Below, in pieces: positions 2,576 to 5,090 of a stretch of DNA of 39,845 bases. How positions within the stretch are numbered: the stretch's first letter is position 1; the number at the start of each line of letters is the position of its first letter. Under the pieces are notes generated by a model. The model did no database searches. It had not been told where the DNA came from and worked only from the letters and a program-made list of their open reading frames with translations. The DNA is taken from IMG/VR virus record IMGVR_UViG_3300006147_000054. One strand, written 5' to 3'. Origin of the DNA: a virus. Made by a program: the position numbers and the translations under genes.

Positions 2576-2592
2576 TTGAATACATAGGAAAA

Positions 2593-2627
2593 GCCACTCT
2601 GGAGTTAATTCTCTGGAGTGGCTTTTT
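2593..2627 (+). terminator. Intrinsic terminator after the endolysin
   Basis: GCCACTCTGGAG / CTCTGGAGTGGC stem (with G-U pairs), followed by TTTTT. Confidence 0.7.
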
Positions 2628-2633
2628 GCGTAT

Positions 2634-2662
2634 TTTAAAAAGTATAGAATCAGATATATAAT
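2634..2662 (+). promoter_or_regulatory. Candidate promoter of the 45-aa moron ORF
   Basis: TATAAT at 2657-2662, with a weak TTTAAA 17 nt upstream. It lies downstream of the lysin terminator. Confidence 0.4.
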
Positions 2663-2697
2663 AGAAAGAAAAGTAAACTTAAAGGAAGAAAATCAGC

Positions 2698-2835
2698 ATG
2701 AAAAACAAAACTAAATTAGCCCAACGGTTTGAAGGATTTGATTATGAAGCGTATTGGAAAAAATGGGAAAAGGAACATCCTAATCAATCTAAGGAGATAG
2801 ACTGGGGAAAGCCAGTAGGTAGAGAAATTTGGTAA
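2698..2835 (+). CDS. 45-aa ORF resembling only the C-terminal toxin-binding tail of MazE/ChpS-type antitoxins
   Basis: AAGGAAG RBS 9 nt upstream of the ATG. Sequence: MKNKTKLAQRFEGFDYEAYWKKWEKEHPNQSKEIDWGKPVGREIW. The C-terminal IDWG-x-P-x3-E-x-W matches the remembered E. coli MazE ending IDWGEPKDKEVW. Confidence 0.5.
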   Translation: MKNKTKLAQRFEGFDYEAYWKKWEKEHPNQSKEIDWGKPVGREIW

Positions 2836-3029
2836 ATGCTCGCTAAAATGTTCGCCAAGTTTAAAACCATAGAAGGGGAGAGAACATTATTTTTAGTGTT
2901 TTTAAATACTGAGCATCGTTAAAAATCAATAAAAATCATATAAATCTCCCCTCATCTCCATAGATAAAAGCCTGTAAGTACTGATCTTACAGGCTTTTTT
3001 GTTTGCTATGATCGCCAAATGCTCGCTAA
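2836..3029. other. Probable attP region with four direct 11-bp arm-type repeats
   Basis: Repeats: ATGCTCGCTAA (2836), ATGTTCGCCAA (2848), ATGATCGCCAA (3008), ATGCTCGCTAA (3019). They flank about 150 bp of non-coding DNA between the lysis module and the integrase, the canonical attP location. Confidence 0.55.
2969..3001. terminator. Bidirectional intrinsic terminator inside the attP region
   Basis: Perfect 10-bp stem AGCCTGTAAG / CTTACAGGCT with loop TACTGAT. It is flanked by an A-run upstream and TTTTTT downstream, and lies just downstream of the integrase stop on the minus strand. Confidence 0.7.
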
Positions 3030-3032
3030 GCT

Positions 3033-4142
3033 CTAAATTTCATCTAAAATTCCAACAATTTGATTATCGGATTTTTGCTTTAATTCATCTAACATGTAGG
3101 CATAGGTTGATGCCGTGATACTCATATTTGAATGACCTAATCTTTTACTAATTGAATATAAGTCGACTCCTTTAAAGAGTAACATAGCAACGTGAGTATG
3201 TCTAAGGCTGTGAAAATGAAAACCATTTTTTTCAATATGTAACTTTTTAAGCTGCTTCCTTAGAACTTTATTGACGGCACTAGAAGTCGGAATGGTGCCA
3301 TCTGGTCCAATAAATAGCCGCATTGTACCATTCTTTTTTAATTGGAGAAGAATATCGAGCAATTTTTGATCTACAGCAATAACTCTAGTGGAGGAACGGT
3401 TTTTGGTTTTTTTATTAATTTCATCAGAATCATAGTTTACAATTTTCTTTTTATCATAATCCCATGATTTAGTGATATGAATTTGTTTATTTTTGAAATC
3501 AATATCATTCCATGTGAGAACTCTAATTTCCCCTGGTCGCATACCAGTATAAATTATTGTCAAAAGCATATATCGACTGATGTAAGTAGCATTAATTTTA
3601 TCTTTTAGTGATTTTACTAGTTGTTGAACTTGTTCAAAATTTAAGTAATCTATTTTTCTTGTTTTTTCTTCATTCCAAATTAAATTAATACGGTCAGTGA
3701 AGTTTTTTCTAATTATACCTTCACTGATAGCGTCTTTGGCACAGGAACGAATAGAACCGTGTGTTTTTTTGACTGTATCCTTAGCATGAGTTGCACCATA
3801 ATCATTCATAAATTTTTGATATTTTAGGCGATTAATTTTAGAGATTTTAATATTTGGAAAATTTTTTGTTAAAAGATCATAAATAATTCTATACCGCCGT
3901 TTAGTATTACCAGATTTTCCAGGAGTTTTATAGGTCTCATACCAAGTTTTAAAATATTCAGCAAATATGGGGTCTTGATTAGAAATGTTTTCTTCATCTT
4001 TTGCTACTTCCATTTCATTAGCCCACTTTTGAGCATCCCTTTTAGTAGCAAAACCACTTTTAGTTTTATATTTTCTCTCATCATTAGAGTACCAAGATAT
4101 TTGAACTGACCAAGTTTTACCTCTTTTTTTGATATAAGCCAT
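3033..4142 (-). CDS. int: Tyrosine recombinase (phage integrase)
   Basis: 369 aa. Contains the catalytic signature TGMRPGE...HSLRHTH...LGHSNMSITASTYAYM (R, H-x-x-R, H, Y). Confidence 0.92.
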   Translation of the reverse strand: MAYIKKRGKTWSVQISWYSNDERKYKTKSGFATKRDAQKWANEMEVAKDEENISNQDPIFAEYFKTWYETYKTPGKSGNTKRRYRIIYDLLTKNFPNIKISKINRLKYQKFMNDYGATHAKDTVKKTHGSIRSCAKDAISEGIIRKNFTDRINLIWNEEKTRKIDYLNFEQVQQLVKSLKDKINATYISRYMLLTIIYTGMRPGEIRVLTWNDIDFKNKQIHITKSWDYDKKKIVNYDSDEINKKTKNRSSTRVIAVDQKLLDILLQLKKNGTMRLFIGPDGTIPTSSAVNKVLRKQLKKLHIEKNGFHFHSLRHTHVAMLLFKGVDLYSISKRLGHSNMSITASTYAYMLDELKQKSDNQIVGILDEI

Positions 4143-4359: not shown

Positions 4360-5010
4360 TTAATAAAATTTGTATTCGTTATAGTTAGTAAATCTAGAAT
4401 GACCTAGAGCTTTATTTTCCCCTGTGTAAAAGGCAAGATAAATACCACGTTTTTGATCTTTGGGTTGGATATCCATCCCAGAAGTTGCCATAGAACGCAA
4501 AACTAAATTCGAAATAGAATTACCAACTTTAGTTTTTGTTGCATCATCTAAGTTCATAAAGCTTTCGTCAACATAAACATAGGCTTGGGTATCACTCTTA
4601 ATATCAATTTTTTCAACATAAGTTGAATAATCATAATTATGATTACCATTATTGGCATCATCTTGATCGCCTTTTAAATCTTGGAATAATTGATCGTTAG
4701 CCTTTTTTATTTGGACATTACTCTCATTATTGGAATTTGAGTCTTTATTGTTATCTTCTTTACTAGATTTTTGTGAAGAACTGTAATTATTGGTAGCCTT
4801 TTTCGAAATCTGATTGGATTTTGAAGGAGAGATGAAAATAGTTACTAACATTAGAACCAAAGATATTGCAGAAATAGCTCCTGAAAGCTTTAAAGATTTC
4901 TTTGATAAAGTTGGTTGCTTTTTTTCTTTAATAGACTGCCATGCAAAATAGAGTGGAAGAGCTGAAATTACAAAGATAAGCATAAAGATCCACGTAAACA
5001 TATTACTCAT
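4360..5010 (-). CDS. Two-TM membrane protein with an extracytoplasmic globular domain; superinfection-exclusion or lysogenic-conversion candidate
   Basis: The start at 5010 is preceded by AGGAG. It has two N-terminal TM segments, then an S/N-rich linker, then a globular domain of about 110 aa. It sits between int and the repressor operon. Confidence 0.6.
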   Translation of the reverse strand: MSNMFTWIFMLIFVISALPLYFAWQSIKEKKQPTLSKKSLKLSGAISAISLVLMLVTIFISPSKSNQISKKATNNYSSSQKSSKEDNNKDSNSNNESNVQIKKANDQLFQDLKGDQDDANNGNHNYDYSTYVEKIDIKSDTQAYVYVDESFMNLDDATKTKVGNSISNLVLRSMATSGMDIQPKDQKRGIYLAFYTGENKALGHSRFTNYNEYKFY

Positions 5011-5090
5011 AGTTTTTCTCCTACTTATATACAAAGTTATGAAATAATAAGCATTAACAATCAGCTTTTAAAGTCGTCAGTATTGGACTA

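What the first reader, a model, noticed from the sequence alone, without database searches (positions are those of the whole stretch)
2634..2835. Orphan headless-antitoxin ORF: only the toxin-binding tail of a MazE/ChpS-type antitoxin
The 45-aa product ends EIDWGKPVGREIW. From memory, E. coli MazE ends NIDWGEPKDKEVW and ChpS ends DVWGKSTPAGDEIW; this C-terminal segment is the part that wraps the MazF/ChpBK toxin. The phage ORF lacks the N-terminal AbrB/SpoVT-type DNA-binding barrel. No PemK/MazF-like gene follows it: the 28-codon ORF at 2836 looks unrelated. It has its own -10 and RBS and sits in the classical moron slot between the lysin gene and attP. The hypothesis is a decoy antitoxin that neutralises host MazF/PemK-family toxins, which would be an anti-abortive-infection function. 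The alternative is that it is a fragment related to the host gene at the integration site.
Basis: partly seen in the sequence, partly recalled or inferred. Interest (0 to 1): 0.62.

Follow-up and report, generated by a model that had tools for sequence, protein, structure and literature searches.

The report
Prophage gene encoding only MazE's toxin-binding tail
A Lactobacillus prophage carries a conserved 45-residue gene that is just the toxin-gripping tail of a MazE antitoxin, with no DNA-binding head and no toxin next to it, so it most likely acts as a free-standing shield against MazF toxins carried by rival prophages.

Summary
ORF 2698-2835 (45 aa) has a promoter-like site, an RBS and flanking terminators. 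It is 82.5% identical to residues 47-91 of the MazE-like antitoxin of L. johnsonii prophage Lj771. Lj771 keeps a full mazE-mazF pair in the same slot between lysin and att.

A profile of full-length relatives aligns end to end with E. coli MazE (1UB4, E = 1.4e-8). On that alignment the ORF covers MazF-binding sites III, II and I, including the Trp73 equivalent. The AbrB-type head and mazF are absent from the window.

It is not a host-gene duplicate. The phage/host junction lies about 130 bp downstream, and the ORF travels with at least three different attachment sites.

Headless versions of 43-61 aa occur on hundreds of public contigs. They fall into about eight lineages with different upstream regions, sometimes in tandem or next to a second complete mazEF. 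Between-lineage dN/dS is 0.03-0.4, which argues against a dead remnant. Some decayed alleles do exist.

The best reading (confidence about 0.55) is a stand-alone MazF-neutralising peptide. It is a convergent analogue of AimX and YosL of Bacillus phage phi3T, so it is a new variant of a known kind. Neither function nor expression was tested.

The parts
2588..2627 (+). Intrinsic terminator of the lysin gene. It is the upstream boundary of the cassette. Copies of it bracket successive cassettes in related phages.
   Evidence: The scan finds 17 pairs followed by a T-run. The element is duplicated after the headless ORF in L033 and L046.
2634..2662 (+). Sigma-70-like promoter, TTTAAA-17-TATAAT.
   Evidence: It matches 10 of 12 consensus positions. 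It is conserved in the A-type loci. Activity was not tested.
2683..2688 (+). Ribosome-binding site AGGAAG, 9 nt upstream of the ATG.
   Evidence: Read directly from the sequence.
2698..2835 (+). 45-aa ORF encoding the headless MazE tail. Residues 1-6 correspond to about MazE site III, 7-20 to about the site II helix, 21-31 to a linker insertion, and 32-45 to about site I with W36 equivalent to MazE W73.
   Evidence: Site definitions come from PMC12557383 and PMC3879964.
2836..2859 (+). Pair of direct 11-bp repeats (ATGCTCGCTAA, ATGTTCGCCAA). They are probably integrase arm-type sites on the P arm and start right at the ORF stop.
Evidence: Read from the sequence. The stretch is invariant across A-type loci. 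Their function is inferred.
2966..2998 (+). Terminator hairpin that contains the attP core. It is the likely 3' end of the ORF transcript.
   Evidence: Found by the scan. The phage form (window, L009, L007) and the integrated form (L005, L012) diverge inside the hairpin after AAAAGCCTGTAAGT.
3008..3029 (+). Second pair of the same direct repeats, on the P' arm.
   Evidence: Read from the sequence; also described in note e1-2901111.
3033..4142 (-). Tyrosine integrase of 369 aa that travels together with the A-type and E-type headless ORFs.
   Evidence: It hits PF00589 and PF14657. It is 99-100% identical in L007, L009 and L013.

Best explanation
The ORF is a real, translated moron gene. It encodes only the MazF-binding region of an AbrB-type MazE antitoxin: an amphipathic helix plus the extended DWGxPxGxE tail.

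It arose from a prophage mazEF cassette of the Lj771 type by loss of the DNA-binding and dimerisation head and of mazF. Since then it has been kept as a separate gene with its own promoter and RBS. It moves among L. johnsonii-group prophages as the last gene before the attachment site.

Inferred mechanism. The peptide is made from a constitutive-looking promoter in the lysogen and on DNA entry. It binds the substrate groove of MazF dimers encoded by other elements in the same cell, above all the mazEF cassettes that sibling prophages carry in the same slot. It blocks their RNase activity in trans. The expected effect is protection of the phage, or its lysogen, from MazF-based exclusion, abortive infection or addiction.

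What is shown and what is inferred. Homology, anatomy, spread and purifying selection are shown. Binding, the identity of the target toxin and the biological pay-off are inferred.
For: (1) Homology to the toxin-binding half.
- The ORF is 82.5% identical to Lj771 MazE residues 47-91. That protein is followed by a PemK/MazF toxin (Pfam E = 1.2e-21) at the same lysin-att slot.
- The full-length family profile aligns end to end with E. coli MazE 1UB4/1MVF (E = 1.4e-8). The helix and DWG tails are in register.
- MazE 48-82 is the MazF-binding part, and Trp73 fills the site I pocket (PMC12557383; PMC3879964).

(2) Sufficiency is plausible.
- A MazE 54-67 peptide and a 12-mer inhibit MazF alone, the 12-mer also in vivo.
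- Phage phi3T AimX and YosL resemble the MazE C-terminus and bind and inactivate MazF (PMC10769878).

(3) In this family the tail normally goes with MazF.
- Every full-length copy examined except the one in L. iners has MazF directly downstream.
- Eight of the 11 Lactobacillus species representatives with the tail have an adjacent PemK.
- The same tail is also found fused to other antitoxin heads (P0026, P0030).

(4) It is a maintained gene.
- Headless ORFs of 43-61 aa fall into about eight lineages with different upstream DNA. Each has a start codon, and those inspected (window type, L017, L021, L027) have an RBS-like sequence before it.
- They occur with at least three attachment sites.
- Cluster members are seen on hundreds of contigs and are nearly all 45-47 aa.
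- Between-lineage dN/dS is 0.03-0.4, like tails of intact cassettes.
- Homology blocks begin at the ATG and end at the stop.

(5) Arsenal-like arrangements exist.
- L046 has two different headless ORFs in tandem.
- L033 has a headless Lj771-type tail next to a complete second mazEF.

(6) MazF toxins are common in the host genus: 66 of 99 species representatives carry one.

(7) The AF2 model shows helices at residues 6-10 and 16-26 and a low-confidence extended tail, as expected for an antitoxin tail that folds on binding.
Against: - No experiment and no expression data support it.
- Co-residence of this ORF with an Lj771-type MazF in one cell was not demonstrated. The sample comparison was uninformative.
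- L. xujianguonis carries a headless copy but has no PemK gene at all.
- Decayed alleles exist. P0088 is a 35-aa allele cut before the DWG motif and is seen on 53 contigs. Several singletons are frameshifted or deleted. The first copy in L046 has a TTG start and Gly at the otherwise invariant Asp.
- A monomeric tail lacks the avidity of dimeric MazE and may be unstable.
- The tail alone has no significant match to solved MazE structures.
- Part of the low dN/dS could date from before truncation, because the tail tree is unresolved.
- The within-lineage count of 9 synonymous against 4 nonsynonymous changes is inflated, because most of those loci were fetched by exact protein identity.
Confidence: 0.55

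Rival explanations
1. It is a non-functional remnant. A mazEF cassette at the prophage end lost mazF and the 5' half of mazE. The surviving 3' piece happens to be open and is drifting towards loss.
For: - The DNA alignment with Lj771 shows the ORF region is what is left after about 110 bp (RBS plus codons 1-28) and a further 20 bp are missing.
- Weak residual similarity to mazE codons 29-36 lies just upstream of the ATG and now carries in-frame stops.
- Degraded heads next to live MazF occur in L. kitasatonis and L. gallinarum.
- Truncated, frameshifted and deleted alleles exist: P0088, P0009, P0011, P0012 and P0014.
- One orphan copy sits in a genome with no PemK.
Against: - Between-lineage dN/dS of 0.03-0.4 is not neutral.
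- Invariant motif residues (F14, D15, Y16, Y19, W20, P28, D35, G37, P39, G41, E43) are kept in headless lineages down to about 50-60% identity.
- Nearly all cluster members, seen on hundreds of contigs, keep 45-47 aa.
- At least three unrelated upstream regions each supply an RBS and an ATG at the same codon.
- Tandem duplication and spread across attachment modules are not expected for debris.
Confidence: 0.2
2. It is a functional small protein whose job is not trans-neutralisation of a rival's MazF. It might tune the phage's own or a neighbouring mazEF by competing with full-length MazE and altering repression or toxin release. It might act as a protease decoy. It might bind a non-MazF partner.
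For: - In L032-L035 the headless ORF sits 290 bp upstream of a complete mazE-mazF pair in the same phage.
- In phi3T the MazE-like peptide AimX also binds a second, phage-encoded partner.
- Selection on the peptide says nothing about the partner.
Against: - In the window and in most lineages (A, B, C, E, G, H) no mazEF lies nearby.
- The conserved residues are those that align with MazE's MazF-contact sites.
- No alternative partner is suggested by the gene context.
Confidence: 0.15
3. It is the duplicated 3' end of a host mazE-like gene, regenerated at the attachment site on integration.
For: Only its position next to attP supports this.
Against: - Phage-form and integrated loci stay identical through the ORF and for about 130 bp beyond it. 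They diverge only inside the terminator hairpin at about 2966-2981.
- The ORF occurs with other attachment sites: next to glmS, an epimerase gene and a GH68 gene.
- Its closest relative is a prophage gene.
Confidence: 0.02

Closest known systems
MazE/MazF cassette of Lactobacillus johnsonii prophage Lj771 (LJ771_055/056, AF195902)
   Same: It occupies the same slot, after a lysin that is 98.7% identical at the protein level (the last 228 bases compared are identical) and before the attachment site. The tail is 82.5% identical. The host species group is the same.
   Different: Lj771 has the 46-residue AbrB-type head and a 114-aa MazF. The window has neither. The window also has a different integrase and att module.
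E. coli MazE C-terminal region (PDB 1UB4), and the MazE 54-67 and SamF peptides
   Same: The family aligns end to end with MazE. The ORF corresponds to MazE residues of about 48-82, that is sites III, II and I including Trp73. Short peptides from or like this region inhibit MazF without the head.
   Different: The ORF is a natural stand-alone gene rather than a synthetic fragment. It has an 11-residue insertion (KKWEKEHPNQS region) between the helix and the DWG tail. Sequence identity to E. coli MazE is low outside the motif.
AimX and YosL of Bacillus phages phi3T and SPbeta (Zamora-Caballero et al. 2024, PMC10769878)
   Same: These are phage-encoded proteins whose similarity to MazE is confined to its MazF-binding C-terminal region. 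They bind and inactivate MazF. AimX is a similarly small peptide.
   Different: No shared ancestry is evident. No sequence comparison with AimX or YosL was run here, so independent origin is an inference. From my own knowledge, B. subtilis MazE has a different head and a helical C-terminus rather than an AbrB head and a DWG tail. AimX is under arbitrium control and has a second partner. The present ORF is a moron at the prophage end, and its function is untested.
Phage orphan antitoxins (T4 AdfN against DarT1, PMC11825919; T4 Dmd against RnlA/LsoA, from my own knowledge)
   Same: The concept is the same: a phage carries an antitoxin-like gene without a toxin in order to defeat a toxin-antitoxin defence.
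   Different: AdfN is an enzyme (a type IV logic). Dmd is unrelated in sequence to the cognate antitoxins. Here the gene is a literal fragment of a type II antitoxin.
PHROG 4324 (unknown function)
   Same: The ORF matches it at E = 4.6e-11.
   Different: It matches only profile positions 48-89 of 89. The PHROG models the full-length protein.

Membership tests
AbrB-type MazE antitoxin (Pfam PF04014 MazE_antitoxin; NCBIfam NF007312 MazE / NF008463 ChpS) | N-terminal AbrB/SpoVT-like DNA-binding and dimerisation domain (the ...KWGNS..R.PK... motif) | tested here: not met
   The ORF has no Pfam or NCBIfam hit. It starts at family position 48. The upstream DNA has no room for a head, because the lysin stop is at 2575, followed by a terminator and a promoter.
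AbrB-type MazE antitoxin | C-terminal toxin-binding segment homologous to MazE residues of about 48-82 | tested here: met
   It is 82.5% identical to the Lj771 MazE tail. hhalign probability is 99.9%. The family profile aligns with 1UB4 MazE end to end, with the DWG tails in register, at E = 1.4e-8.
AbrB-type MazE antitoxin | Operon partner: a MazF/PemK toxin gene directly downstream | tested here: not met
   tblastn with Lj771 MazF finds nothing in the window. The DNA downstream of the ORF is attP and the integrase.
AbrB-type MazE antitoxin | Neutralises its cognate MazF | not testable with these tools
   This needs co-expression or binding assays.
Phage MazE-tail mimics (AimX/YosL kind) | A phage-encoded protein with similarity to MazE restricted to the MazF-binding C-terminal region, and no adjacent toxin | tested here: met
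   Shown. The definition is taken from PMC10769878.
Phage MazE-tail mimics (AimX/YosL kind) | Sequence homology to AimX or YosL themselves | not tested
   Those sequences were not at hand. No such chain appeared among the 60 PDB matches shown (323 matches in all), which is not a real test.
Phage MazE-tail mimics (AimX/YosL kind) | Binds and inactivates MazF and promotes phage development | not testable with these tools
   This is a bench experiment.
Decaying TA remnant (pseudogene) | Neutral evolution (dN/dS about 1), random frame disruptions, and no conserved expression signals | tested here: not met
   dN/dS is 0.03-0.4. Length is kept at 45-47 aa in nearly all cluster members. RBS and ATG are kept in different upstream contexts. 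A minority of alleles are disrupted.
Host gene 3' end duplicated at att | The ORF lies within the att core or overlap region shared with the host | tested here: not met
   The junction is about 130 bp downstream of the stop.

The most novel reading that the evidence does not exclude
Prophages of the L. johnsonii/gasseri group fight one another with a swappable cassette slot after the lysin gene. Some carry a complete mazEF, which acts as addiction or exclusion. Others carry one or two head-less MazE tails of different specificity classes, which act as shields against their rivals' MazF. A few carry both. On this reading, DNA-binding-domain-less antitoxin peptides would be a widespread, naturally evolved class of trans-acting toxin inhibitors in lactobacilli, not a single oddity.
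Probability: 0.35. Interest if true: 0.72.

Novelty: new variant of a known kind. Interest (0 to 1): 0.6.

Why it matters
Type II antitoxin tails are short and disordered, so orphan type II antitoxins in phages are hard to spot, a point also made in PMC11825919. Here comparative genomics defines a small-protein family seen on hundreds of contigs. The family equals the complete MazF-binding region of a MazE, is stripped of its regulatory head, and sits in prophages of common gut and probiotic lactobacilli.

If it neutralises MazF in trans, three things follow:
- It would be a second, independently evolved case of the AimX/YosL strategy, this time in an AbrB-type MazE lineage.
- It would show that prophage-borne mazEF cassettes and their antidotes circulate as alternative alleles of one slot.
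- It would give a natural minimal MazF inhibitor for study.

It also bears on annotation. These 45-47-aa genes are mostly unnamed, labelled 'hypothetical', or mislabelled by chance similarity to antibody chains.

Tried and rejected
- Tail-only searches of solved structures (single sequence, profile) returned only chance matches to antibody heavy-chain framework and CDR1 segments. They give no evidence either way. The link to MazE needed full-length relatives.
- Pfam and NCBIfam find nothing for the ORF itself.
- The first related-loci run on genome contigs failed because no column block was conserved enough. It was repeated with a trimmed alignment.
- The Lj771 paper of Denou et al. 2008 is not held. 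What I say about it comes through PMC3879964.
- I tried to see whether samples with the headless ORF also hold Lj771 MazF by looking up the MazF protein. No listed samples overlapped, and there were too few places to conclude anything.
- L007 has a 296-aa protein with a weak PemK-like N-terminus in its lysogeny module. I tested it as a possible in-phage target, but it is absent from the window and from the other loci.
- The neighbours of the 61-aa F-type copy gave no PHROG hit, so that context stays unassigned.
- The within-lineage synonymous/nonsynonymous count is kept only as weak support, because most loci were retrieved by exact protein identity.
- The tail tree is too short (111 columns) to decide between one truncation event and several.
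- I considered a DNA-level constraint from the att arm as the cause of conservation and rejected it. Variation is concentrated at synonymous sites, and the ORF occurs with different att modules.

Full report
WHAT IS THERE. The window is a temperate Lactobacillus phage in its circular or phage arrangement. A GH25+SH3 lysin (1637-2575) and, on the other strand, a tyrosine integrase (3033-4142) face each other across about 450 bp.

In that gap the following features lie in order:
- the lysin terminator (2588-2627);
- a TTTAAA-17-TATAAT promoter-like site (2634-2662);
- AGGAAG (2683-2688);
- an ATG-initiated 45-codon ORF (2698-2835);
- two 11-bp direct repeats that start at the stop codon;
- a second terminator hairpin (2966-2998);
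- the same repeats again (3008-3029).

The ORF product is MKNKTKLAQRFEGFDYEAYWKKWEKEHPNQSKEIDWGKPVGREIW.

WHAT IT IS RELATED TO. The ORF has no Pfam or NCBIfam hit of its own. It does match PHROG 4324 at E = 4.6e-11, but only positions 48-89 of that 89-position profile.

tblastn against phage records finds one close relative. This is the 91-aa 'Maz-like protein' LJ771_055 of L. johnsonii prophage Lj771, at 82.5% identity over ORF residues 5-44 (E = 1e-16). In Lj771 that gene lies after a lysin that is 98.7% identical to the window's, and whose last 228 compared bases are 100% identical. It is followed by LJ771_056, a 114-aa PemK/MazF toxin (Pfam E = 1.2e-21), and then by the prophage end.

The DNA alignment shows what the window lacks. 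About 110 bp holding the mazE RBS and codons 1-28 are missing, plus a further 20 bp. A weakly similar stretch just upstream of the ATG now carries in-frame stops. Downstream of the stop, similarity to Lj771 ends and mazF is absent. tblastn with Lj771 MazF finds nothing anywhere in the window.

LINK TO CHARACTERISED MazE. Tail-only searches of solved structures return only chance matches to antibody heavy chains. A profile of eight full-length relatives does better. It matches E. coli MazE (1UB4 chain C, 1MVF chain D) from first to last residue at E = 1.4e-8. The KWGNS head, the segment after it and the terminal DWGxP..E.W are all in register.

Published work defines MazE residues 48-53, 54-67 (helix H2) and 68-82 as MazF-contact sites III, II and I. 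Trp73 is buried in a MazF pocket (PMC12557383; PMC3879964). On that alignment:
- ORF residues 1-6 correspond to site III;
- residues 7-20 correspond to the site II helix;
- residues 32-45 correspond to site I, with W36 equivalent to W73;
- an 11-residue insertion lies between the helix and the tail.

So the ORF is not an arbitrary fragment. It begins where the toxin-binding region begins and contains all of it. An AF2 model (mean pLDDT 70) gives helices at 6-10 and 16-26 and a low-confidence extended C-terminus, as expected for a tail that folds on binding.

NOT A HOST-GENE COPY. I compared phage-form loci (window, L009, L007) with integrated ones (L005, L012). They are identical through the ORF and about 130 bp beyond it. 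They diverge inside the terminator hairpin after AAAAGCCTGTAAGT. The attP core is therefore at about 2966-2981, and the ORF is on the phage arm.

Related headless ORFs also end prophages at other sites:
- next to a GH68 gene (A and E types);
- next to glmS (G type);
- next to a UDP-GlcNAc 2-epimerase gene (L016).

HOW COMMON, AND IN WHAT FORMS. Searches of protein collections recover dozens of clusters of 43-61-aa proteins that are tail only. Members of five clusters alone are seen on hundreds of contigs. Examples are P0104 on 292, P0101 on 121, P0105 on 76 and P0102 on 56. Nearly all are 45-47 aa, and some are named 'hypothetical protein [Lactobacillus johnsonii]'.

From the fetched loci I distinguish about eight lineages:
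- A: the window type, 45 aa, in 13 loci with several different lysis modules. One locus (L010) has a Panacea-Fic pair inserted before it.
- B: L016, with an A-type upstream region and a C-type body.
- C: L017 and L036, with an unrelated 520-bp upstream region and a GGGGGA RBS.
- D: L032-35, 43 aa with an in-frame WEK deletion.
- E: L021 and L046-53, 46 aa, 67% identical to the window ORF, with its own TATAAT and GAGGAG.
- F: L054-57, 61 aa, in a non-phage-looking context beside a cas8e gene.
- G: L058-62, 47 aa, at the glmS site.
- H: the L. xujianguonis chromosome, 48 aa.

Pairwise blastn shows that homology between lineages starts at the ATG and stops at the stop codon. The ATG replaces the same Lys codon of Lj771 mazE in A, C and E.

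Two arrangements stand out. In L033 the order is: headless D ORF, a second copy of the lysin terminator, then a complete and different mazE(93 aa)-mazF(112 aa) pair. In L046 a C-like headless ORF, a terminator copy and an E-type headless ORF stand in tandem. The post-lysin slot is thus a modular array whose units are bracketed by terminator copies.

DOES THE TAIL GO WITH MazF? Yes, in full-length genes. Every full-length copy in my loci has MazF directly downstream, except the L. iners gene. Among 99 Lactobacillus species representatives, 11 carry the tail family and 8 of these have PemK adjacent. PemK toxins are present in 66 of the 99. The same tail is also found fused to other antitoxin heads (P0026 and P0030). 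That fits the known modularity in which the tail co-evolves with the toxin (PMC3879964).

SELECTED GENE OR DEBRIS? Between lineages, NG86 dN/dS over the 37-codon core is 0.03-0.4. For example, window against L017 shows 18 nucleotide but only 4 amino-acid differences. This is the same range as between tails of intact cassettes.

Motif residues F14, D15, Y16, Y19, W20, P28, D35, G37, P39, G41 and E43 are invariant in the trimmed alignment of the window ORF with closer headless and full-length tails. They are largely kept in the more distant headless proteins, although single members depart from them, for example P0025, P0030 and P0054.

Within lineage A, I counted 9 synonymous and 4 conservative nonsynonymous segregating changes, against 16.5% synonymous expected (P = 3.5e-5). 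Most of those loci were fetched by exact protein identity, which inflates the ratio, so I give it little weight.

Several things count against strict constraint:
- a 35-aa allele ending before DWG (P0088) is seen on 53 contigs;
- several singleton alleles are frameshifted or deleted;
- the first L046 copy has a TTG start and Gly at the invariant Asp;
- L. xujianguonis has a headless copy but no PemK gene;
- the 111-column tree cannot decide between one truncation and several, so some divergence may pre-date truncation.

On balance the data favour a maintained coding gene that is sometimes lost.

MECHANISM PROPOSED. Shown: the ORF equals the MazF-binding region of a MazE, it has expression signals, and it is conserved as a protein. 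Established elsewhere: MazE-derived or MazE-like peptides without the head inhibit MazF, and phage phi3T uses MazE-C-terminus look-alikes (AimX, YosL) to bind and inactivate host MazF.

Inferred: the peptide binds MazF dimers made by other elements in the cell. The best candidates are the Lj771-type cassettes of sibling prophages, which share host, lysin and slot, and whose MazE tail is 82% identical. Binding would prevent RNA cleavage when the labile cognate MazE runs out during superinfection, induction or loss of the rival element. Whether the pay-off is anti-exclusion for the phage or anti-addiction for the lysogen cannot be told from sequence. Confidence is about 0.55.

COMPARISON AND NOVELTY. 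The ORF works like a MazE tail but fails two defining features of the MazE family, the head and the adjacent toxin. I therefore do not file it as a MazE antitoxin.

As a kind, phage-borne toxin-less mimics of the MazE C-terminus are known (AimX/YosL), and so are phage orphan antitoxins (AdfN; Dmd, from my own knowledge). What is new here:
- a different MazE lineage (AbrB-type with a DWG tail), so probably an independent origin;
- a visible evolutionary path from a prophage mazEF cassette in the same slot;
- a large, diversified and recombining family in lactobacilli, with tandem and mixed arrangements.

Hence the rating 'new variant of a known kind' and interest of about 0.6.

Noticed in passing
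window 2836-3029: The attP anatomy can be read from the comparisons. The core lies inside the terminator hairpin at 2966-2998. The phage/host junction comes after AAAAGCCTGTAAGT. The core is flanked by two pairs of 11-bp direct repeats (ATGCTCGCTAA-like), which are probably integrase arm sites. In integrated copies the neighbouring host gene is a GH68 (levansucrase-like) gene.
   Followed up: partly
L020:2837-3132 (IMGVR_UViG_2518645521_000001): This is an Lj771-type cassette in which mazE is split by a frameshift in its poly-A run (KKKK codons), while mazF is intact (97% identical). It could be a sequencing error, phase variation, or a snapshot of head/tail separation.
   Followed up: no
L033:4480-6086 and L046:2820-3641: Copies of the lysin terminator bracket successive cassettes after the lysin gene. 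The order is spacer plus headless ORF, a terminator copy, then either a full mazEF or a second headless ORF. This looks like a recombination-built moron array.
   Followed up: partly
L017:2452-2985, L033:4480-5000 and L046:2861-3243: A conserved spacer of about 520 bp with several hairpins lies between the lysin terminator and the C/D-type headless ORFs. It has no convincing ORF. Its function is unknown.
   Followed up: no
L010:4877-5823: A SocA_Panacea-domain gene and a Fic gene, a putative toxin-antitoxin pair, are inserted between the lysin and the A-type headless ORF in one relative.
   Followed up: no
L007:8570-9460 (minus strand): A 296-aa protein with a weak N-terminal PemK-like match and a long coiled-coil-like C-terminus sits in the lysogeny module of a relative that has the same integrase and headless ORF. 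It is absent from the window.
   Followed up: partly
L029/L068 (Lactobacillus iners DSM 13335) and L027/L063 (L. xujianguonis): L. iners has a full-length orphan MazE of this family. L. xujianguonis has a headless copy, which by my reading of the DNA follows a glycerate-kinase-like gene (that neighbour was not checked with any tool). Neither genome has any PemK match.
   Followed up: partly
P0041 (database name) and PDB hits: The tail's FxGFDYxxYWxxW..P stretch resembles by chance the framework-1/CDR1/framework-2 region of antibody heavy chains. One public record names a headless copy 'immunoglobulin heavy chain variable region addiction, camel antibody'. That name probably derives from the MazE-camel-antibody entry 1MVF and is an annotation artefact.
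   Followed up: no
P0088 (35 aa, 53 contigs, longest 517,753 bp): This is a common A-type allele that stops just before the DWG motif. It keeps the site II helix but lacks site I. It may be a decaying copy or a minimal version.
   Followed up: no
window 4360-5034 (minus strand): A 224-aa protein with N-terminal hydrophobic segments and an S/N-rich linker lies between the integrase and the repressor. It is in the usual place of superinfection-exclusion genes.
   Followed up: no
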